A stretch of DNA of 39,004 nucleotides from Shigella phage SFP21A. The stretch lies in sequence record OQ031074. One strand, given 5' to 3'. Every line of letters begins with the position of its first letter. The stretch's first letter is position 1. The position numbers were made by a program, and so were the translations under genes. The notes under the pieces are model-generated. The model saw only the letters and a list, made by a program, of their open reading frames with translations, was not told where the DNA came from and did not search any database. This document shows positions 4,319 through 39,004 of the stretch, in pieces.

Positions 4319-4342
4319 CTAATTGAATGGCCTATAGTTTCA

Positions 4343-4365
4343 ACTTAACTATCACTATAGGGACT
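4343..4365 (+). promoter_or_regulatory. phage RNAP promoter (ACTTAACTATCACTATAGGGACT), +1 about 4360
   Basis: Match to the window's own 12-copy promoter consensus; shares TCACTATAGGGA with T7 class III promoters. Confidence 0.8.
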
Positions 4366-4393
4366 ATAGGCCCTTTAAGTTATAGGAGACTTT

Positions 4394-5447: not shown

Positions 5448-7730
5448 ATGGCTAGTAATATCGAATCAGCTTTAGCTAACCGGACTATGGGCCGTGGTCG
5501 CGCTCCGGGCAAAGCTATCAGTGTGGACTATCAGGCGGCGAACGTTCAGGGGCAGACTGGGGACTCCGGTCTTGCCCGTGCGTTCACTAACTTCGTGGAG
5601 TCCGGCACTGGTCTGTACAAGCAGTTCCAAGAGAAGGCCAAGAACCTCGGGGATGAGCGGTCTAACGAGATTATACGTAAGCTGACTCCCCAGCAAAGGC
5701 GTGAGGCTATCCAGAATGGAACCCTGCTGTATCAGGACGACCCGTATGCAATGGAGGCACTGAAAGTCAAGACTGGTCGAAACGCTGCCTATGCGGTAGA
5801 CGATGAGATTAACGTCAAGATTCAGAACGGTGAGTTCCGCACCCGTCAGGAAATGGAGGAGTACCGCCACCAGCGACTTCAGGATGCCGCTAAGTCTTAT
5901 GCTGACGAGGCTGGTATTAACCCCAATGATGAGCACTTCCAGCGTGGATTTAACGCAGACATCACGGACCGAAACATAGCAATCTATGGGTCGTTCAATA
6001 AGTATTTCTCTAAGCAGTCAGAGAATACTGCTATGCTGAACACCCGTGTAGAGCTGAACTCGTTCCTGAATGATGGGGACCTGATGCGTTCACCTGAGGC
6101 AGGCAAGTCTTTCATGGCGTATCTTCGCGATGGGCTGACCACTGCTGCCATTCCGTCTGACCGAAGGGCGACTGAAGTAATCACACAGACGGTACGGGAT
6201 GCAATCCAGAAGTCCGGTGGCGCTAACTTCCTCCAGCAGATTCGACAGGAACGTATCACCCTTAACGGGGTGGACGCCACGATTGAGGAGATTGTTGGGC
6301 CTGAGGTCTTCAACGCTGCTGTGGTCGAGGCGCAAGGAACCGAGTATAAGCTGGTAGCGAAGTATCAGGAAGACTTGTCTCTGGGAGTTCAGTCTGCACT
6401 ACTTCAGGATGACCCGACCATTGGTCTGGCTCAAATCCAGAAACTCAAGGCTCAGAACAACCAGCTTCAGCCGGGTGAGGAAATGACACCACAACGTCAG
6501 ATGCTCATCAATGCCGAGGCCAGCCTCTTAGAGTCCGTGAAGCGCAAGTCCGCTGAGCAGGCTAAGGAGAACACTAAGCTCATCCAGACTCAGAATAAGC
6601 AGTTGGTCATCGACCAAGTGTATCAGAGACGACTGGCTGGCGAAAACGTGTCCACCAACTATGAGGACCTCCCGGTATCCGAGGCCACTGGTGAGTTCAA
6701 GCGTTCGGACATGAACAACTACGCCATGGGTAAACTCCAGCAGATTGACCAGATGGATATACCTCAGGCTGCTAAGGATGCTCAGAAGGTTGCGCTGCTA
6801 CGAGCTGATACCAACAATGGCCCGTTCCGTAACGCCTTCCAGACGCTGACTCAGGATGCTGCTGGTGAGTGGCAAGCTGCGGTCATCCGTGGTCAATACG
6901 ACCCAGACAAGATGCAGCGCTTCGAGTCCCTGCGTAAGGTCTACACTCAGGACCCTTCCAGTTTCGCGGCTCTATACCCTGAGCAGGCCCAATTGTTCAC
7001 GACTTTCGAGCAGATGGATAAGATGGGTCTGGACCCTCAGACTATGATTGACGCTGACAAACAGGCTGCAAGTCAGTCCCGTGAGATGCGCATTGAGTCT
7101 GACAAGGCGTGGCAGGAGCTGAAGAATGACTCGAAGAACAAGGACCTCTCGCGTCTACCGACAAGTCTGGACGCAAGTGCTCGTAAGGTATGGGACTCAT
7201 GGTATTACCGCACAGGTAACGCCGATGCAGCTACCCAGAACACTCAGAAGTGGCTGAACGAGAACACCGTGACTTTCAATGATGATGGTCAGGACGGTAA
7301 GTCCATCGGCATGGTGTCCAAGCATCAACTTATGGTCGGGGATAACCCTGAGTCGTGGCAGGTTGGTCGAGACATTATTGACACAGCTCGCAAGCAACTC
7401 ATCAAAACTAACCCTTGGGTCGTGAACTCTCAGCTCTCTGTAGTTGAGCAGAACGGCTCGGTCTTCCTGCAAGACGCCACTGGGACCATTCGTATTCGCT
7501 ACGATAAGGAACTGGTAGGCAAACTGTACCGTGAACAGCAGAAACAAGCCGAGGATAAAGCCTACGCTGAAGCTGAACGTAAAGCCAACACCCGCGCTCG
7601 CATTGTCGAGACTAAAGCGGCTGGTGATAAACGTCGAGCGGAGCGTGAAGGTAACATCCAGAAACGCGGCGGTATGTACAGTGATGTCTCGCTGGAGGGT
7701 ATCGCAAACACCTTAATCGGTAAGGAGTAA
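5448..7730 (+). CDS. 15: internal virion protein C (gp15)
   Basis: 760 aa (T7 ~747 aa); RBS AGGAGGA; synteny. Confidence 0.85.
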   Translation: MASNIESALANRTMGRGRAPGKAISVDYQAANVQGQTGDSGLARAFTNFVESGTGLYKQFQEKAKNLGDERSNEIIRKLTPQQRREAIQNGTLLYQDDPYAMEALKVKTGRNAAYAVDDEINVKIQNGEFRTRQEMEEYRHQRLQDAAKSYADEAGINPNDEHFQRGFNADITDRNIAIYGSFNKYFSKQSENTAMLNTRVELNSFLNDGDLMRSPEAGKSFMAYLRDGLTTAAIPSDRRATEVITQTVRDAIQKSGGANFLQQIRQERITLNGVDATIEEIVGPEVFNAAVVEAQGTEYKLVAKYQEDLSLGVQSALLQDDPTIGLAQIQKLKAQNNQLQPGEEMTPQRQMLINAEASLLESVKRKSAEQAKENTKLIQTQNKQLVIDQVYQRRLAGENVSTNYEDLPVSEATGEFKRSDMNNYAMGKLQQIDQMDIPQAAKDAQKVALLRADTNNGPFRNAFQTLTQDAAGEWQAAVIRGQYDPDKMQRFESLRKVYTQDPSSFAALYPEQAQLFTTFEQMDKMGLDPQTMIDADKQAASQSREMRIESDKAWQELKNDSKNKDLSRLPTSLDASARKVWDSWYYRTGNADAATQNTQKWLNENTVTFNDDGQDGKSIGMVSKHQLMVGDNPESWQVGRDIIDTARKQLIKTNPWVVNSQLSVVEQNGSVFLQDATGTIRIRYDKELVGKLYREQQKQAEDKAYAEAERKANTRARIVETKAAGDKRRAEREGNIQKRGGMYSDVSLEGIANTLIGKE

Positions 7731-14439: not shown

Positions 14440-14699
14440 CGCAGATGGACTTAGAGAAGTTCCTGTTAATGCTGGACACTGAACGTGCAAGACTTATGCT
14501 GCAAGACCTGCGGGATGACTCCAAGCGTTCACCTCAGCTTTATAACGCCATCGAGAAGCTGCTAGCTCGCCACAACTTTGTGCTCAGCAAGGTGTCTGTG
14601 GATGAGAAACAGTTAGCTGACATGGAGGCGCTGAACAGGGAGTACGATAAGGTGCTCTCAGCTACTGAGGATAATGACACCGGGTATGGTGTACAGTAA
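14436..14699 (+). CDS. 18: terminase small subunit (gp18)
   Basis: 87 aa; conserved LLMLDTE, RSPQLYNAIEKLLARH as in T7 gp18; directly upstream of the lysis/terminase block. Confidence 0.8.
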   Translation: MTQMDLEKFLLMLDTERARLMLQDLRDDSKRSPQLYNAIEKLLARHNFVLSKVSVDEKQLADMEALNREYDKVLSATEDNDTGYGVQ

Positions 14700-14756
14700 G
14701 TGTTAGACTCAAGGTCATTACCACTATATGTAGTGGCCTTTATGATTAACACACAC
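14699..14756 (+). ncRNA. RNase III-type processing hairpin (conserved motif copy 1)
   Basis: AGACTCAAGGTCAT..CCACTA-TATG-TAGTGG..CCTTTATGATTAAC: upper stem, internal loop and lower stem. The same flanking motif recurs at 24397 and 31047. Confidence 0.55.
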
Positions 14757-18385: not shown

Positions 18386-18535
18386 TACCACATCGAAACG
18401 ACAGTGAGGCCTAACACTGAAACAGGCTAGCGAGGCGACGACAGCCAAGCGAATGCTCTTTAACAATCTGGATAAACTCTTAATGTGCGCCGATAGTAAG
18501 CGATTAACTCAAGAGACTTGTTGGCTACTGCGGGT

Positions 18536-18578
18536 CAGGCTCAAGATGAGCGCCTAAGGTCTCTTTATGATAATCACT
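18536..18578 (+). ncRNA. putative RNase III site upstream of gene 0.3 (R0.3-like)
   Basis: GGCTCAAGATGAGCGCCTAAGGTCTCTTTATGATAATCACT resembles the T7 R0.3 region (CTCAAGG..CCCTTTATGATATTCACT) and the window's own hairpin motif. Confidence 0.4.
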
Positions 18579-19255: not shown

Positions 19256-19380
19256 TGTACACGATAAGCTACAGCAGCGAGCAGGCGTTCTATGATGGTC
19301 TCGTCGAGCTGATGAAGCGCGGGGCCTGCTACACGGCTAACCACCATGCGCTAACCATAACGCTGACAGGCGGGTACTGA
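19255..19380 (+). CDS. hypothetical small early protein
   Basis: 41-aa ORF (MYTISYSSEQAFYDGLVELMKRGACYTANHHALTITLTGGY); start overlaps the upstream stop (TGATG); RBS AGGAGG at 19241-19246. Confidence 0.35.
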   Translation: MYTISYSSEQAFYDGLVELMKRGACYTANHHALTITLTGGY

Positions 19381-19424
19381 GTGTTAACTGATTGTCACTT
19401 AACCACAAGAAGGAAACACACGTA

Positions 19425-20159
19425 ATGAACGCACACGATAAAGTAATCATGAATAACCTGATGTCTCAACTTCACGCTATAATCTGCGAGGAGTGCTACA
19501 AGATTGAAGACCCGTTCGCTGGCATAGCTGGTCAGCCACGCTGGGGAGCCTTTGAGATACTGGCCCGTGAGCATGGCTACAAGCTGTTAGGTCTGGGACA
19601 CTTCGCCGCTGCCTTTGAGCATGAGGACCTGCCGGGATATGCAATAAAGGTGGGCTTCAAGAAGGATGACTCAGGCGCTGCATATGCGGCCTTCTGCCGA
19701 GAGAATGAGGGTCTGGCTGGACTTCCGGTCATCCATCTGGTCAAGCGCTTCAGCAGGGCTTACATGGTGGCTATGGACAAGTACCGCTCACTGAATGACA
19801 TTGGTGGTGACTACTGCCGGGATGGTGAGACCTACGAGCAGCGAGTATTAAACGTGTCATGGCGTGTGGTCAACGCGATAATAGACCATTGCGAGCAACC
19901 GTCTGAGGCCCTGAGCTGGTGGCTGGACCAAGACGCACGGGCTGAGTTTGCACACGTCGAGGCTCAGTATATCAAGGACCTTGCGCAGACCGCTAAGAAG
20001 ATTAACAGTTTCTTCTACGGGCTGGCATCATTCGACACTCACCGCGCTAACGTGATGGTCGACAATAACGGGCGCTTGATAATCACGGACCCAGTGTCAT
20101 GGACCGCAATCGACCATCAAGATGAGCTGCAAGGAAAGCTGAATGCAATAGCTGAGTGA
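19425..20159 (+). CDS. 0.7: serine/threonine protein kinase (gp0.7 homolog), kinase domain only
   Basis: 244 aa from ATG 19425 (RBS AAGGAAAC); blocks GLGHFAAAF, IKVGFKKDDSGAAYAAFCR, GLASFDTHRANVMV, ITDPVSW match the T7 gp0.7 kinase domain; lacks the ~110-aa C-terminal shut-off region of T7 gp0.7. Confidence 0.8.
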   Translation: MNAHDKVIMNNLMSQLHAIICEECYKIEDPFAGIAGQPRWGAFEILAREHGYKLLGLGHFAAAFEHEDLPGYAIKVGFKKDDSGAAYAAFCRENEGLAGLPVIHLVKRFSRAYMVAMDKYRSLNDIGGDYCRDGETYEQRVLNVSWRVVNAIIDHCEQPSEALSWWLDQDARAEFAHVEAQYIKDLAQTAKKINSFFYGLASFDTHRANVMVDNNGRLIITDPVSWTAIDHQDELQGKLNAIAE

Positions 20160-20165
20160 TAGACG

Positions 20166-20190
20166 AGAGGCCACTACATCTAGTGGTCTC
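20166..20190 (+). ncRNA. stem-loop after kinase gene (possible RNase III site)
   Basis: GAGAGGCCACTACATCTAGTGGTCTC: stem CCACTA/TAGTGG shared with the hairpin at 14720; no U-tract, so a processing site is more likely than a terminator. Confidence 0.35.
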
Positions 20191-20224
20191 AAAGATTATT
20201 ACTCACAACATATAGAGGTGAACT

Positions 20225-20839: not shown

Positions 20840-20862
20840 ACTAAACTATCACTAAAGGACTC
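20840..20862 (+). promoter_or_regulatory. phage RNAP promoter variant (..CTAAACTATCACTAAAGGAC), +1 about 20857, upstream of gene 1
   Basis: Exact 14-nt match to the upstream consensus, but CACTAAAGG instead of CACTATAGG (T3-like -2 base); followed by a structured leader. Confidence 0.5.
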
Positions 20863-20937
20863 AAGGTCGAAAGACTCTAAGTCAGGACTGAAGTGAAAGA
20901 CTTTAGTGATAAGACAACAGTTATAAGGACTTTAAGT

Positions 20938-24382: not shown

Positions 24383-24400
24383 ACTATCACTATAGGATTA
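24378..24400 (+). promoter_or_regulatory. phage RNAP promoter (CCTAAACTATCACTATAGGATTA), +1 about 24395
   Basis: Consensus match; immediately followed by an RNase III-type hairpin. Confidence 0.75.
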
Positions 24401-24446
24401 GACTCAAGGTCATGACACAAAGTCGTGGCCTTCATGATTAACCCTA
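24397..24446 (+). ncRNA. RNase III-type processing hairpin (conserved motif copy 2)
   Basis: AGACTCAAGGTCATGAC-ACAAA-GTCGTGGCCTTCATGATTAAC; the stem GGUCAUGAC/GUCGUGGCC pairs with G-U wobbles; same flanks as 14699 and 31047. Confidence 0.55.
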
Positions 24447-24957: not shown

Positions 24958-26025
24958 ATGACTACTACCCTCAAGACCAACCCGCATCGCGCTGTAGATT
25001 ACTCTGAGTCTGGCGTTAAGAAAGCACTGGAAGCTGCCGGGTCGCTGGAAGCTGAAGTGAAGTATGACGGTGTGCGTATAAACATCCCGGTCTTCCCTAC
25101 TGGCGAGACGCAATGGTTAAGCCGAGAGTCTAAGCCTCTTCCGTCCCTGAGCTGGCTGTCTGTGCCAGAAGGTATCCACCAGTCTCCGGGAGAGCAGCAG
25201 AATGCAAGCGACTGGCGATGGTTCCTGAAGCAAGCAGGACATGAGGTATCTGGCCTGATGGTTGATGGCGAGGTGATGGTCAAGGGTGTAGACTTCAACA
25301 CGTCCTCAGGTCTTATCCGCACCATGTGGTCTGACCGCAAGAACTACAAGTGGAACATGAACCCTAAGGCCGACATGGAGACCAAGAAGTCTAACAAGGT
25401 TCCATTCCAGATTAGCCCTGAGTTCCTACAAGTGGTCGTCTACGGGGTCATCGACCTTAACGTCATCAACAACCCGAAAGCTGAAGGTCCTATCCATAGC
25501 GTCACTCGCCTGAAGGCCGAAGCTATTGTCCCTCTCCTCCAGAAATACTTCCCGGAAATCGACTGGGTTCTGTCTGAGTCACACACGGTCTATGACCTTG
25601 AGTCGCTCAACTCCCTGTACGAAGAGAAGCGTCTGGAAGGACACGAGGGCCTGGTAGTCAAGGACCCACTGGGCAAATACAAGCGTGGCAAGAAGTCAGG
25701 CATGTGGAAGATGAAGCCTGAGGAGACCATCGACGGGACCGTGTGTGGCCTCGTGTGGGGGACTCCGGGTAAGGCCAACGAAGGAAAGGTCATCGGCTTT
25801 GAGGTCCTGCTGGAGGATGGAATGGTGGTCAATGCCTGCGGTCTGACTGAAACGCAGAAGGACGAGTTCACCGCAGCGGTAAAAGAGTACCCAGAAGGTG
25901 AGGAGTTCTTCAACGGCTGGCAGTGTGAAGTCCTCTTCATGGAGCGGTTCCCGGATGGCTCACTCCGTCATCCCAGCTTCAAATGCTGGCGTGGAACTGA
26001 AGACAACCCAACCGTTAAGAGTTAA
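24958..26025 (+). CDS. 1.3: ATP-dependent DNA ligase (gp1.3)
   Basis: 355 aa from ATG 24958; adenylation motif EVKYDG; many blocks shared with T7 ligase (LKTNP, MVKGVDFNTSSGLIRT, YFPEIDW, EGHEGLVVKDP, YKRGKKSGMWKMKPE, GKVIGFEVLLE, PDGSLRHPSF, RGTEDNP). Confidence 0.93.
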   Translation: MTTTLKTNPHRAVDYSESGVKKALEAAGSLEAEVKYDGVRINIPVFPTGETQWLSRESKPLPSLSWLSVPEGIHQSPGEQQNASDWRWFLKQAGHEVSGLMVDGEVMVKGVDFNTSSGLIRTMWSDRKNYKWNMNPKADMETKKSNKVPFQISPEFLQVVVYGVIDLNVINNPKAEGPIHSVTRLKAEAIVPLLQKYFPEIDWVLSESHTVYDLESLNSLYEEKRLEGHEGLVVKDPLGKYKRGKKSGMWKMKPEETIDGTVCGLVWGTPGKANEGKVIGFEVLLEDGMVVNACGLTETQKDEFTAAVKEYPEGEEFFNGWQCEVLFMERFPDGSLRHPSFKCWRGTEDNPTVKS

Positions 26026-26034
26026 CTGAACGTC

Positions 26035-26070
26035 AACCCAGTGGTCTTCGCGGACTGCTGGGTTTCTTTG
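26035..26070 (+). terminator. intrinsic terminator after ligase (early terminator TE-like)
   Basis: 12-bp stem AACCCAGTGGTC / GACTGCTGGGTT (with G-U pairs), 6-nt loop, then U-rich TCTTTG; position equals T7 TE after gene 1.3. Confidence 0.7.
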
Positions 26071-29044: not shown

Positions 29045-29062
29045 ACTATCACCTTAGGGATG
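29040..29062 (+). promoter_or_regulatory. phage RNAP promoter variant (GCTAAACTATCACCTTAGGGATG), +1 about 29057
   Basis: Upstream half consensus; two changes in the -4/-3 region; precedes gene 4. Confidence 0.55.
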
Positions 29063-29109
29063 AGACCATGAGTCTTGTCCCTTTGTTCGCATTATTGACT
29101 AAGGAGTGA

Positions 29110-31032: not shown

Positions 31033-31050
31033 GCTATCACTGTAGGATAG
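31028..31050 (+). promoter_or_regulatory. phage RNAP promoter variant (ACTAAGCTATCACTGTAGGATAG), +1 about 31045
   Basis: Consensus upstream half; -2 T>G; immediately followed by an RNase III-type hairpin and gene 5. Confidence 0.6.
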
Positions 31051-31090
31051 ACTCAAGGTCATTCACTTCGAGTGGCCTTTATGATTAGAC
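31047..31090 (+). ncRNA. RNase III-type processing hairpin (conserved motif copy 3)
   Basis: AGACTCAAGGTCATTCACT-TCG-AGTGGCCTTTATGATTAGAC; same conserved flanks as copies at 14699 and 24397. Confidence 0.55.
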
Positions 31091-31103
31091 TATAGGAGAC
31101 ATT

Positions 31104-34953: not shown

Positions 34954-35075
34954 TGTATTGGGCCGGACTGCTGGCCCTTTACTTACTGTACACGTTCAGT
35001 GGGACAAATCGTCCTAAGCATTGAGTTTAACCGATAGTCATAACCTATCGACCTACAGCTACCCATAGGTGAAAC

Positions 35076-35098
35076 ACTAAACTATCACTATAGGGACT
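35076..35098 (+). promoter_or_regulatory. phage RNAP promoter (ACTAAACTATCACTATAGGGACT), +1 about 35093
   Basis: Full consensus; precedes the 6.5/6.7/7/7.3/portal block. Confidence 0.8.
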
Positions 35099-35160
35099 TT
35101 AGGACCTAAGTTATGACTATAAGATAAACTTAAGTTAATACTTTAAGAGGAGACTTTAAG

Positions 35161-36331: not shown

Positions 36332-37900
36332 ATGGCTGAACGTGAAGGCTTCGCTGCTGAAGGGGCCAAAGCGGTCTATGACCGACTGAAGAACGGACGA
36401 CAGCCGTATGAGACCCGTGCTCAGAACTGTGCTGCTGTCACCATACCGTCGCTGTTTCCGAAAGAGTCTGACAACTCCTCAACCGAGTATACGACTCCGT
36501 GGCAGGCGGTGGGCGCTCGCTGTCTGAACAACCTCGCTGCCAAGCTGATGCTGGCCCTGTTCCCACAAGCCCCGTGGATGAGACTTACCGTCTCTGAATA
36601 TGAGGCAAAGGCCCTGAGTCAAGACTCTGAGGCTGCTGCCCGTGTTGACGAGGGGCTGGCTATGGTGGAACGTGTTCTGATGGCCTATATGGAGACTAAC
36701 AGTTTCCGTGTCCCGCTGTTCGAGGCCCTTAAGCAGCTTATCGTCGCAGGCAACTGTCTGCTGTACGTTCCTGAACCTGAGCAAGGGACCTACAGTCCTA
36801 TGCGCATGTATCGTCTGGTCTCCTATGTAGTCCAGCGTGATGCGTTCGGCAACGTTCTACAGATTGTCACCCTAGACAAGGTGGCTTACAGCGCACTGCC
36901 GGAAGACGTTAAGTCTCAGCTAAACGCTGACGACTACGAGCCGGACACAGAGCTGGAAGTCTACACGCACATCTATCGTCAAGACGATGAGTACCTGCGC
37001 TATGAGGAAGTGGAGGGAATAGAGGTGAAGGGGACCGATGGTTCCTACCCGCTGAATGCCTGTCCTTACATCCCGGTACGAATGGTTCGACTGGATGGTG
37101 AAGACTATGGTCGTTCTTACTGCGAGGAATATCTGGGAGACCTGAACTCGCTGGAGACGATTACAGAAGCTATCACCAAAATGGCTAAGGTAGCCTCCAA
37201 AGTGGTGGGCCTCGTTAATCCGAACGGTATAACGCAACCTCGACGTCTAAACAAGGCGGCTACAGGTGAGTTCGTGGCTGGTCGCGTAGAGGACATCAAC
37301 TTCCTTCAACTGACGAAAGGTCAGGACTTTACGATTGCTAAATCGGTGGCTGACGCTATCGAGCAACGTCTAGGCTGGGCCTTCCTTCTTAATAGTGCTG
37401 TTCAGCGTAATGCTGAGCGAGTAACTGCTGAAGAGATTCGTTATGTTGCTGGCGAACTGGAGGCGACCTTAGGTGGCGTGTACTCTGTACAGTCTCAGGA
37501 GATGCAGTTACCTCTGGTCCGTGTGTTGCTGAACCAGCTTCAGTCCGCTGGCATGATTCCTGACCTTCCGAAAGAAGCGGTAGAGCCTACGGTCTCCACT
37601 GGTCTGGAAGCTCTGGGTCGTGGTCAGGACTTGGAGAAGCTGACTCAGGCGGTGAACATGATGACTGGACTTCAGCCTCTGGCTCAGGACCCGGACATTA
37701 ACTTGCCTACCCTTAAGCTGAGACTTCTCAACGCTCTGGGTATCGACACATCCGGTCTACTCCTGACGCAGGACGAGAAGATTCAGCGCATGGCTGAGCA
37801 GTCGTCCCAAAATGCAGTAGTCCAAGGTGCTGGTGTTGCTGGTGCTAACATGGGCGCTGCTGTTGGTCAAGGGGCTGGTGAGGATATGGCTCAGGCTTAA
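36332..37900 (+). CDS. 8: portal (head-to-tail connector) protein (gp8)
   Basis: 522 aa; long identity runs with T7 gp8 (YETRAQNCA, TIPSLFPK, TPWQAVGAR, LNNLA.KLMLALFP, SEYEAK, VDEGL.MVER, LFEALKQL, YRL.SYVVQRDAFGNVLQ, PYIP.RMVRLDGE.YGRSY.EEYLGDL, GLVNP.GITQPRRL, ERVTAEEIRYVA, LPLVRVLL, PKEAVEPT.STGLEA.GRGQDL). Confidence 0.97.
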   Translation: MAEREGFAAEGAKAVYDRLKNGRQPYETRAQNCAAVTIPSLFPKESDNSSTEYTTPWQAVGARCLNNLAAKLMLALFPQAPWMRLTVSEYEAKALSQDSEAAARVDEGLAMVERVLMAYMETNSFRVPLFEALKQLIVAGNCLLYVPEPEQGTYSPMRMYRLVSYVVQRDAFGNVLQIVTLDKVAYSALPEDVKSQLNADDYEPDTELEVYTHIYRQDDEYLRYEEVEGIEVKGTDGSYPLNACPYIPVRMVRLDGEDYGRSYCEEYLGDLNSLETITEAITKMAKVASKVVGLVNPNGITQPRRLNKAATGEFVAGRVEDINFLQLTKGQDFTIAKSVADAIEQRLGWAFLLNSAVQRNAERVTAEEIRYVAGELEATLGGVYSVQSQEMQLPLVRVLLNQLQSAGMIPDLPKEAVEPTVSTGLEALGRGQDLEKLTQAVNMMTGLQPLAQDPDINLPTLKLRLLNALGIDTSGLLLTQDEKIQRMAEQSSQNAVVQGAGVAGANMGAAVGQGAGEDMAQA

Positions 37901-37917
37901 CTATCACTATAGGAACA
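37895..37917 (+). promoter_or_regulatory. phage RNAP promoter (GCTTAACTATCACTATAGGAACA), +1 about 37912
   Basis: Consensus match; followed by a 9-bp perfect stem GGAACAACG / CGTTGTTCC (37912-37961) at the transcript 5' end. Confidence 0.75.
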
Positions 37918-37988
37918 ACGTCTGGTCTACAATTTGTAGGTTTCTAGTCCCGTTGTTCCTACCATTTCAATCAAAGGAGAACGACTCA

Positions 37989-38877: not shown

Positions 38878-38900
38878 ACTAAACTATCACTATAGGGAGA
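38878..38900 (+). promoter_or_regulatory. phage RNAP promoter for capsid gene (phi-10-like), +1 about 38895
   Basis: ACTAAACTATCACTATAGGGAGA with the full GGGAGACC initiating region; ~100-nt leader and RBS AGGAGA run to the window end, and the capsid ATG is at position 1. Confidence 0.85.
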
Positions 38901-39004
38901 CCAAGAGTATGACTCAAGGTTTCCCTGTAACTTCAGTCCATACGGATTGGGCATAGCGAAGTAACTAAACTTTATTTCTTTCATTCGAATAGGAGAATTA
39001 TCAT

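What the first reader, a model, noticed from the sequence alone, without database searches (positions are those of the whole stretch)
14699..14756. Family of conserved RNase III-type hairpins with identical flanking motif
Three sites share the flanks AGACTCAAGGTCAT .. GGCCTT(T/C)ATGATTA but have different central stems (CCACTA/TAGTGG; GGTCATGAC/GTCGTGGCC with G-U pairs; TCACT/AGTGG). Conserved lower stem, asymmetric internal loop and variable, compensatory upper stem is the pattern of T7 RNase III processing signals. Copies are at 14699-14756 (after the small terminase gene), 24397-24446 and 31047-31090 (each right after a phage promoter). A degenerate fourth copy lies upstream of gene 0.3 (18536-18578), and a related hairpin follows the kinase gene (20166-20190).
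Basis: partly seen in the sequence, partly recalled or inferred. Interest (0 to 1): 0.5.

Follow-up and report, generated by a model that had tools for sequence, protein, structure and literature searches.

The report
T7-type RNase III mRNA processing hairpins
These repeated hairpins are this T7/T3-like phage's copies of the textbook signals at which the host enzyme RNase III cuts long phage transcripts into separate messenger RNAs, so the finding is correct but ordinary.

Summary
The window is a circularly permuted genome of a T7/T3-like podophage. Its closest relative is Shigella phage SFPH2 (genus Kayfunavirus). The three sites with shared flanks are real and far beyond chance. They lie at the positions of the annotated T3 RNase III sites R18.5, R1.1 and R4.7. 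Their core is essentially the sequence of T7 R1.1, the classic RNase III substrate.

Comparison of 84-123 distinct relatives gives one structure: a 7-bp lower stem, a 4/5-nt internal loop (ACUC / UAUGA), and an upper stem of at least 10 bp. Both stems covary strongly. The pairs next to the predicted cut match the published RNase III preference.

A covariance model built from these sequences recovers 7 of the 10 annotated T3 sites. In the window it finds five members: 14700-14752, 24395-24444, 31044-31091, 18500-18577 and 20156-20202.

- The conserved block is the internal loop plus the base of the upper stem, not the lower stem.
- Two of the quoted "central stems" are alternative registers.
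- The gene 0.3 copy starts at 18498, not 18536.

Cleavage itself could not be tested here. The kind is already known, so interest is low.

The parts
14700..14752 (+). RNase III site at the R18.5 position, between gene 18 (small terminase) and gene 18.5. Segments: lower stem GUGUUAG/UUAACAC, internal loop ACUC/UAUGA, upper stem AAGGUCAUUAC/GUAGUGGCCUU, 8-nt terminal loop. The cut predicted by homology lies between U14743 and G14744.
   Evidence: (65.7 bits, E about 1e-16). Syntenic with T3 R18.5. Proximal-box and distal-box pairs are identical to T7 R1.1.
24395..24444 (+). RNase III site at the R1.1 position, before gene 1.1. It begins at the predicted +1 G of the promoter just upstream. Segments: lower stem GGAUUAG/UUAACCC with one A.C mismatch, internal loop ACUC/CAUGA, upper stem AAGGUCAUGAC/GUCGUGGCCUU. 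The predicted cut lies between U24435 and G24436.
   Evidence: z -4.0; 62.7 bits. Syntenic with T3 and T7 R1.1. It deviates from R1.1 at two positions: C.C at proximal-box position 4 and G-C at distal-box position 1.
31044..31091 (+). RNase III site at the T3 R4.7 position, before gene 5 (DNA polymerase). Segments: internal loop ACUC/UAUGA and upper stem AAGGUCAUUC/GAGUGGCCUU, both identical to T7 R1.1, with terminal loop ACUUC. The predicted cut lies between U31082 and G31083. In read-through transcripts an extended lower stem (CUGUAG/CUAUAG) reaches into the gene 5 Shine-Dalgarno region.
   Evidence: z -3.3; 58.8 bits. Syntenic with T3 R4.7.
18500..18577 (+). RNase III site at the R0.3 position, upstream of gene 0.3 (SAM hydrolase). 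It has the same ACUC/UAUGA loop. Segments: lower stem GCGAUUA/UAAUCAC with a C.A mismatch, as in T3 R0.3; upper stem AAGAGACUU/AGGUCUCUU; a 37-nt branched insert. The predicted cut lies between U18568 and G18569.
   Evidence: 23.3 bits; 31.7 bits; z -2.45, the same fold in SFPH2. Proximal-box and distal-box pairs are identical to T7 R1.1.
20156..20202 (+). Diverged family member just after the gene 0.7 kinase. The geometry is the same: 7 bp, a 4/5 loop, then 10 bp. The loop reads ACGA/AAAGA and the upper stem GAGGCCACUA/UAGUGGUCUC. The cut is tentatively predicted after A20193.
   Evidence: z -5.9; 28.3 bits, E 1.4e-5, every pair standard.
24383..24397 (+). Phage RNA polymerase promoter core (ACTATCACTATAGGA). 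Its predicted +1 G (24395) is the first base of the R1.1-position hairpin.
   Evidence: 12 copies, all on the + strand. The promoter-then-hairpin layout matches T3 phi1.1/R1.1.
31033..31047 (+). Phage RNA polymerase promoter core (GCTATCACTGTAGGA) directly abutting the hairpin before gene 5.

Best explanation
These are host RNase III processing signals in the phage's polycistronic transcripts. They are orthologues of the T7/T3 sites R18.5, R1.1 and R4.7, with further members at the R0.3 position and after gene 0.7.

**Structure.** In the + strand RNA each site folds into two coaxial helices, a lower stem of about 7 bp and an upper stem of 10-11 bp. Together these make roughly two turns of double-stranded RNA. 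A 4-nt/5-nt internal loop (ACUC on the 5' side, UAUGA on the 3' side) separates the helices.

**Recognition.** RNase III binds the helix. The three pairs just above the loop (A-U, A-U, G-C) and the U-G/U-A pairs higher up are the positions known to set binding and cut-site choice.

**Cleavage.** The internal loop limits cleavage to one bond on the 3' side, between UAU and GA. The upstream mRNA then ends in a stable 3' hairpin that protects it from 3' exonucleases. The downstream mRNA (genes 18.5-19, 1.1-1.3, or 5 onward) starts with a short defined leader.

**Promoter-proximal sites.** At the two sites that follow a promoter, transcripts started there lose a leader hairpin of about 40 nt. Read-through transcripts are separated from the upstream message.

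**Shown versus inferred.** Shown here: sequence, structure, covariation, synteny and homology. Inferred from homology: the cleavage itself, its exact position, and its effects on stability and translation.
For: - **Repeat beyond chance:** exact flanks occur at three + strand sites.
- **Genome type:** the window is a T7/T3-like phage, closest to SFPH2 in Kayfunavirus.
- **Annotated counterparts:** the T3 record annotates RNase III stem-loops at the syntenic positions with the same core. T7 carries the core at its R0.5 and R1.1 positions.
- **Upper-stem covariation:** a scan of viral contigs with only the flanks fixed gave at least 120 loci, nearly all contigs of 38-41 kb. There were 61 distinct central sequences, and 55 extend the helix by at least 3 pairs. 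Shuffled sequences gave a mean of 4.6 and a maximum of 12.
- **Consensus structure:** RNAalifold predicts the lower stem, 4/5 loop and upper stem. On that structure 96.8% of cells pair, against 25-52% in the slid registers. There were 185 double-sided changes, against 5-48 in the slid registers.
- **Core left free:** with the core not fixed by a search pattern, 123 distinct sequences gave 95.1% paired. Fourteen of 17 pairs showed double-sided changes. The proximal-box pairs were G-C 123/123, A-U 122/123 and A-U 116/123.
- **Strand specificity:** frequent G.U pairs would be A.C mismatches on the other strand, so the structure is specific to the transcribed strand.
- **Model search:** the covariance model recovers 7 of 10 annotated T3 sites, 7 T7 sites, and five window sites.
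- **Published rules:** the geometry and box pairs match the R1.1 description and the RNase III rules (PMC6121014, PMC1540722). The same homology scheme places the T7 R1.1 cut after nt 5887. That is the coordinate I recall from the original T7 annotation; this rests on memory and is not in the record held here.
- **Kinase:** the window keeps the gene 0.7 kinase. The SFPH2 record describes that protein as a positive regulator of RNase III.
Against: - No cleavage data exist for this phage, and none can be produced with these tools.
- Rfam has no family that matches, so there is no independent curated model.
- The 24395 site departs from the optimal rules at two positions: C.C next to the predicted scissile bond, and G-C at distal-box position 1.
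- The 20156 site departs more, with loop ACGA/AAAGA and G-C at proximal-box position 3. Its efficiency and exact cut site are uncertain.
- Many compared sequences are related by descent or are paralogues, so the cell counts overstate the number of independent compensatory events.
- The second alignment was fitted to the model.
- One family site present in relatives is deleted in this genome. Individual sites are therefore dispensable.
Confidence: 0.9

Rival explanations
1. The hairpins act mainly as mRNA-stabilising or translation-controlling structures in their own right, for example a 3' or 5' protective hairpin or Shine-Dalgarno masking. RNase III cleavage would then be absent or incidental in this phage.
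For: - The hairpins are stable.
- At 31044 the extended lower stem overlaps the gene 5 Shine-Dalgarno region.
- Published work shows that some RNase III-binding structures are bound but not cut (PMC1540722).
- The 24395 site has non-optimal pairs at two box positions.
Against: - The near-invariant elements are the internal loop and the proximal-box pairs. These are what RNase III recognition needs, and stability alone would not require them.
- The 31044 site is identical to the cleaved T7 R1.1 in every stem and loop position.
- A stabilising hairpin would need neither the 4/5 loop nor the conserved AAG/CUU pairs.
Confidence: 0.05
2. They are transcription terminators or pause sites for the host or the phage RNA polymerase.
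For: A simple terminator scan flags 14721-14736 in the alternative register, followed by CCTTTATGAT.
Against: - Only one of the three sites is flagged, and weakly, with 3 G-C pairs and a broken T run.
- The scan finds fewer terminator-like sites in the region (10) than in shuffles (13.2).
- No site has a U tract after the full hairpin.
- Two sites sit immediately downstream of promoters and in front of essential genes, where termination would be counter-productive.
- Separate G+C-rich hairpins followed by T runs, which look like true terminators, lie at about 1316-1355 and 26035-26065.
Confidence: 0.02
3. They are DNA-level repeats, such as recombination hot spots, protein operators or origin elements. 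The RNA fold would then be incidental.
For: - The core is repeated several times per genome and in 744 phage records.
- An indel relative to SFPH2 has both ends inside such hairpins.
- The conserved TATGAT gives a sigma-70-like -10 match at 14718-14746.
Against: - All copies are on the transcribed strand.
- Pairing is kept by compensatory changes in both stems while the sequence varies.
- Many conserved pairs are G.U, which pair only in RNA of this strand.
- A DNA-binding site would conserve sequence rather than complementarity.
Confidence: 0.03

Closest known systems
Bacteriophage T7 R1.1 RNase III processing signal, with T7 R0.3, R0.5, R4.7, R6.5 and R18.5
   Same: - Same core, ACUCAAGGUC...GGCCUUUAUGA.
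- Same 4/5 asymmetric internal loop and two-helix layout, and the same proximal-box and distal-box pairs.
- The 31044 site equals R1.1 in the loop and the whole upper stem.
- Same arrangement of a phage promoter immediately followed by the hairpin (PMC6121014, PMC1540722).
   Different: - Lower-stem sequences and terminal loops differ.
- The window's promoter sequence differs: CTATCACTATAGG, not T7's.
- The window's R1.1-position site has CAUGA rather than UAUGA, and a G-C at distal-box position 1.
- Cleavage has been shown for T7 but not for this phage.
Bacteriophage T3 annotated RNase III recognition sites R18.5, R1.1, R4.7, R0.3 and R0.5 (NC_003298)
   Same: - Same gene neighbourhoods.
- Same core motif.
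- The model built here recovers them at their annotated coordinates.
- The R0.3 lower stem shares even the C.A mismatch.
   Different: - The window's R0.3-position site has a 37-nt branched insert in the upper stem.
- The window has no family member at the R0.5 or R1.3 positions.
- The window carries two extra ORFs between the post-kinase site and gene 1.
- At the R6.5 position the window has a hairpin of similar geometry but unrelated sequence, which the model does not detect.
Cellular and lambda RNase III substrates, such as rRNA operon spacers (from general knowledge)
   Same: Double-stranded stems of about two helical turns, recognised by the same host enzyme.
   Different: Many of those are cut on both strands of a regular helix. 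The T7-type sites have an internal loop that restricts cleavage to one strand and leaves a 3' hairpin (PMC1540722).

Membership tests
T7-group (Studiervirinae) RNase III processing signal, R1.1 type | Irregular hairpin of two coaxial helices that together give about two turns of double-stranded RNA | tested here: met
   A 7-bp lower stem plus a 10-11-bp upper stem at 14700, 24395, 31044 and 20156. At 18500 the upper stem is 9 bp plus a branched extension.
T7-group (Studiervirinae) RNase III processing signal, R1.1 type | Asymmetric 4-nt/5-nt internal loop between the helices, which carries the scissile bond on its 3' side (PMC6121014) | tested here: met
   The loop is ACUC/UAUGA at 14700, 31044 and 18500, ACUC/CAUGA at 24395, and ACGA/AAAGA at 20156. 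RNAalifold predicts the same loop on 84 sequences.
T7-group (Studiervirinae) RNase III processing signal, R1.1 type | Proximal box next to the cut: G-C at position 1, A-U or U-A at position 2, A-U at position 3, and no G-C or C-G pair at position 4 (PMC1540722) | tested here: met
   - G-C, A-U, A-U at 14700, 24395, 31044 and 18500.
- Position 4 is C.U at three of those sites and C.C at 24395.
- The 20156 site has G-C at position 3.
- Across 123 relatives: G-C 123/123, A-U 122/123, A-U 116/123.
T7-group (Studiervirinae) RNase III processing signal, R1.1 type | Distal box of a U-A and a U-G pair at the R1.1 distance from the cut (PMC1540722) | tested here: inconclusive
   - Present at 14700, 31044 and 18500.
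- 24395 has U-G then G-C, and 20156 has C-G then U-A.
- The T7 R0.5-position site also deviates: its upper stem reads AAGGUCGCUC/GAGUGGCCUU.
- In relatives these two pairs vary: UG 72 / CG 45, and UA 54 / CG 53. The distal box tunes efficiency rather than defining membership.
T7-group (Studiervirinae) RNase III processing signal, R1.1 type | Sense-strand, intergenic position syntenic with known T7/T3 sites | tested here: met
   The sites lie at gene 18|18.5, promoter|1.1, promoter|5, upstream of 0.3, and after 0.7. All are on the + strand, which is the coding strand of every gene.
T7-group (Studiervirinae) RNase III processing signal, R1.1 type | Sequence-plus-structure homology to annotated members | tested here: met
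   The model scores the window sites at 65.7, 62.7, 58.8, 28.3 and 23.3-31.7 bits. It scores annotated T3 sites at 20-68 bits (7 of 10 recovered) and seven T7 sites at 22-72 bits.
T7-group (Studiervirinae) RNase III processing signal, R1.1 type | Base pairing maintained by compensatory substitutions | tested here: met
   Up to 5 pair types occur per position in both helices, and 0 of 500 shuffles reach the observed scores. Caveat: the sequences are related to each other, and alignment A2 was fitted to the model.
T7-group (Studiervirinae) RNase III processing signal, R1.1 type | [quoted passage not shown] | not testable with these tools
   This needs RNA end mapping in rnc+ and rnc- hosts, or an enzyme assay.
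Intrinsic (rho-independent) terminator | G+C-rich stem followed directly by a U tract | tested here: not met
   Only 14721-14736 is flagged, weakly and in an alternative register. The other sites are not flagged, and the region holds fewer terminator-like sites than shuffles do.
Any Rfam family | Match at the gathering score | tested here: not met
   No match anywhere in the window. Rfam appears to hold no model for these phage signals.

The most novel reading that the evidence does not exclude
Besides being processing signals, the repeated hairpin cores may serve as break-and-join points for the gain, loss and exchange of small early-gene cassettes among T7-like phages.

Three states of one locus upstream of the kinase gene fit this reading:
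- SFPH2 has two hairpins flanking an extra gene.
- Most relatives have one intact hairpin.
- This genome has only a lower-stem scar. The junction lies inside the internal-loop sequences.

One locus cannot separate a real preference from coincidence.
Probability: 0.15. Interest if true: 0.35.

Novelty: already known. Interest (0 to 1): 0.1.

Why it matters
The practical value is mainly for annotation. Public records of this phage group (SFPH2, K1F and about 740 other matching records) leave these signals unannotated. The covariance model and segment map made here would let them be marked routinely.

The sites also predict the mature mRNA ends of this phage. That is useful when engineering it or reading its transcriptome. 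Nothing here challenges current understanding of RNase III or of T7-like gene expression.

Tried and rejected
- **Rfam scan of the whole window:** no family matched.
no stable hairpin (z +0.45). This was resolved by the model hit with a 5' arm further upstream.
- **Terminator hypothesis:** not supported.
- **Reverse-complement 13-mer inside the ligase gene (25592-25604):** it is conserved only as part of near-identical coding sequence in close relatives. A codon variant occurs in some, and the sequence is absent from that context in K1F. Nothing shows that the complementarity is selected.
- **K1F genome paper and Panayotatos & Truong 1985:** neither is held in the library.
- **K1F and SFPH2 records:** neither carries an RNase III annotation.
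- **T7 RefSeq record as held:** it lists no RNase III sites. The T7 cut coordinates quoted rest on my memory of the original annotation, cross-checked only by the motif positions.

Full report
**What the window is.** All long ORFs lie on the + strand, in the order of a T7/T3-type genome that has been circularly permuted to start at the capsid gene. The closest public genomes are Shigella phage SFPH2 (94.8% identity over 6 kb) and Cronobacter phage GW1. SFPH2 is classified in Kayfunavirus, the K1F group of Studiervirinae. A phage promoter, CTAAACTATCACTATAGGR, occurs 12 times, always on the + strand.

**Checking the observation.** The 5' motif occurs exactly on the + strand only at those three places, and so does the 3' motif. 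The first site starts right after the stop codon of gene 18. The other two abut promoters at 24383-24397 and 31033-31047. All three fold as hairpins, with z = -2.0, -4.0 and -3.3.

**Link to known sites.** The T3 reference record annotates ten 'RNase III recognition site' stem-loops.
- Seven of them carry the same core, CT[CT]AAGGTC...GGCCTT..TGAT.
- R18.5, R1.1 and R4.7 lie in the same gene neighbourhoods as the three window sites.
- T7 has the exact core at 1438-1471 and 5858-5890, and its 3' half at 884-893. From memory of the original T7 annotation, these are R0.5, R1.1 and R0.3.
[quoted passage not shown] It is described as a hairpin with an asymmetric 4-nt/5-nt internal loop and one primary cleavage site used in vivo (PMC6121014).

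**Structure from comparison.** Nearly all hits lie in contigs of 38-41 kb.
- Of 61 distinct centres, 55 extend the AAGGUC/GGCCUU helix by at least three further pairs. Shuffled centres gave a mean of 4.6 and a maximum of 12.
- The sequences outside the flanks also pair and covary. Examples are GTGATA/TATCAC, GTGTTA/TAACAC, GTGGTA/TACCAC, GCGATA/TATCGC and GGTCTA/TAGACT.
- On 84 distinct sequences (alignment A1), RNAalifold predicts a 7-bp lower stem, a 4/5 internal loop and a 10-bp upper stem.
- On that structure 96.8% of cells pair, against 25-52% in slid registers. There are 185 double-sided changes, against 5-48 in slid registers.
- Many conserved pairs are G.U, so the fold exists only in RNA of the transcribed strand.
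- Part of A1 was fixed by the search pattern, so I repeated the count on model-derived matches. With 123 distinct sequences, 95.1% of cells pair. Fourteen of 17 pairs show double-sided changes.
- Caveats: the sequences are related by descent and paralogy, and the second alignment was fitted to the model.

**Family membership in the window.** A covariance model built from A1 was run over the whole window without filters.

| Site (model hit) | Position | Score (bits) |
|---|---|---|
| 14698-14754 | R18.5 | 65.7 |
| 24393-24446 | R1.1 | 62.7 |
| 31042-31093 | T3 R4.7 | 58.8 |
| 20154-20204 | after gene 0.7 | 28.3 (every pair standard) |
| 18498-18578 | R0.3 | 23.3 (31.7) |

Nothing else scored above noise. 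The same model recovers T3 R0.3, R0.5, R1.1, R1.3, R4.7, R6.5 and R18.5 at their annotated coordinates, and seven sites in T7.

1. The conserved block is the top of the lower stem, the internal loop and the first 6-7 pairs of the upper stem. The outer lower stem and the distal upper stem are the variable, compensating parts.
2. CCACTA/TAGTGG and TCACT/AGTGG are alternative registers. The homologous helices are AAGGUCAUUAC/GUAGUGGCCUU and AAGGUCAUUC/GAGUGGCCUU.
3. The gene 0.3 copy begins at 18498. With the right boundaries the element folds (z -2.45), and SFPH2 has the same fold.
4. 20166-20190 is only the upper stem of a complete element.

**Test against the published enzyme rules.** PMC1540722 defines the preferred substrate as follows:
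- a proximal box with G-C at position 1, A-U or U-A at position 2, A-U at position 3, and A-U or U-A at position 4;
- a distal box of a U-A and a U-G pair;
- at least 11 bp between the cut and the loop.

The same paper notes that native R1.1 has a U.C pair at proximal-box position 4. Segment maps of the window sites show:
- Sites 14700, 31044 and 18500 match R1.1 at every one of these positions.
- Site 31044 is identical to R1.1 throughout the loop and upper stem.
- Site 24395 has C.C at proximal-box position 4 and G-C at distal-box position 1.
- Site 20156 has G-C at proximal-box position 3 and a different loop sequence.
- In 123 relatives the three proximal-box pairs are nearly invariant. 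This explains why the core is so conserved.

Applied to T7 R1.1, the homology scheme places the cut after nt 5887. That agrees with the coordinate I recall from the original T7 annotation.

**Mechanism.** RNase III binds the roughly 20-bp composite helix. The internal loop restricts cleavage to one bond on the 3' side, which leaves a 3' hairpin that protects the upstream RNA (PMC1540722).
- Predicted cuts are U14743/G14744, U24435/G24436, U31082/G31083 and U18568/G18569, and tentatively A20193/G20194.
- At 24395 the hairpin starts at the promoter's predicted +1 G. Transcripts started there would therefore lose a leader of about 41 nt.
- At 31044 an extended lower stem in read-through RNA overlaps the gene 5 Shine-Dalgarno region. 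Cleavage may therefore also free the ribosome-binding site.
- These functional consequences are inference from the T7 literature and from the folds.

**Rivals.**
- The terminator reading fails. No site has a U tract after the full hairpin. Only one weak hit appears, in an alternative register, and the region holds fewer terminator-like sites than shuffles do.
- A DNA-level repeat does not explain strand-specific G.U pairs or conserved complementarity with varying sequence.
- A purely structural RNA role does not explain conservation of the enzyme's recognition pairs.

**Novelty.** The kind is textbook, and the three sites are direct orthologues of annotated T3 and T7 sites. The element matches 744 phage records, all T7-like phages of enterobacteria. 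Almost none annotate it; T7M labels its copy R0.5. SFPH2 and K1F carry no such annotation.

**Side observations.**
- Other stable hairpins of different sequence sit at the T3 R13, R3.8 and R6.5 positions. Two of them enclose a promoter, as in T3.
- Upstream of the kinase gene the window has only a scar, GAGTGTTAA|CTGATTGTCAC. Most relatives have one intact family hairpin there (EP1, 36.1 bits). SFPH2 has two hairpins flanking an extra gene.

Noticed in passing
window 19379-19398: A lower-stem 'scar', GAGTGTTAA|CTGATTGTCAC, lies between a small ORF and the kinase gene. Most relatives have one intact family hairpin here; in EP1 the window's deletion is 29 nt. SFPH2 has two hairpins flanking an extra gene, 466 bp that the window lacks. 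The junction lies inside the internal-loop sequences, so this genome has lost the site.
   Followed up: partly
window 4329-4376: A 13-bp perfect hairpin, GGCCUAUAGUUUC...GGGACUAUAGGCC, encloses most of the promoter before gene 13 in its loop (z -4.3). The layout matches the annotated T3 R13 site, which overlaps promoter phi13. The family model does not detect it.
   Followed up: partly
window 35021-35134: A long hairpin before gene 6.5 (z -5.6) has a lower stem, a small internal loop and an 11-bp upper stem. A large insert in it contains the phage promoter at 35081-35095. The architecture matches T3 and T7 R6.5, but the sequence is unrelated to the family core.
   Followed up: partly
window 29056-29082: An 11-bp hairpin lies immediately after the promoter before gene 4 (z -3.7), at the position of T3 R3.8.
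   Followed up: partly
window 20847-20913: Before gene 1, a promoter-like sequence (CTATCACTAAAGGA) pairs with a downstream inverted copy (CTTTAGTGATAAG) (z -2.5). The loop holds GACTCAAGGTCG, the family's 5' motif, with no 3' partner. This may be the counterpart of T3/T7 R1, or a remnant.
   Followed up: partly
window 25592-25604 (- strand): An exact reverse complement of the 13-mer GACTCAAGGTCAT lies inside the ligase gene (codons V-Y-D-L-E-S). In RNA it could pair with the 5' arm of the hairpins. It is conserved only as coding sequence in close relatives, so it is probably a coincidence.
   Followed up: partly
window 14718-14746: A sigma-70-like promoter match (TTACCA, 17 nt, TATGAT) uses the hairpin's conserved TATGAT as its -10 element. 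The T7 record lists a minor E. coli promoter E at 36836, about 20 nt upstream of where I recall its R18.5 cut (36856, from memory).
   Followed up: no
window 37910-37961 and 38891-38929: Stable leader hairpins start at or just after the predicted +1 of the promoters before genes 9 and 10. The first has z -5.3; the second was only seen in the fold of the intergenic region.
   Followed up: no
L030 1583-2283 (IMG/VR contig IMGVR_UViG_2974612054_000001): Three family hairpins lie about 300 bp apart in the early region of a T7-like contig, so each small early gene there is bracketed by processing sites.
   Followed up: no
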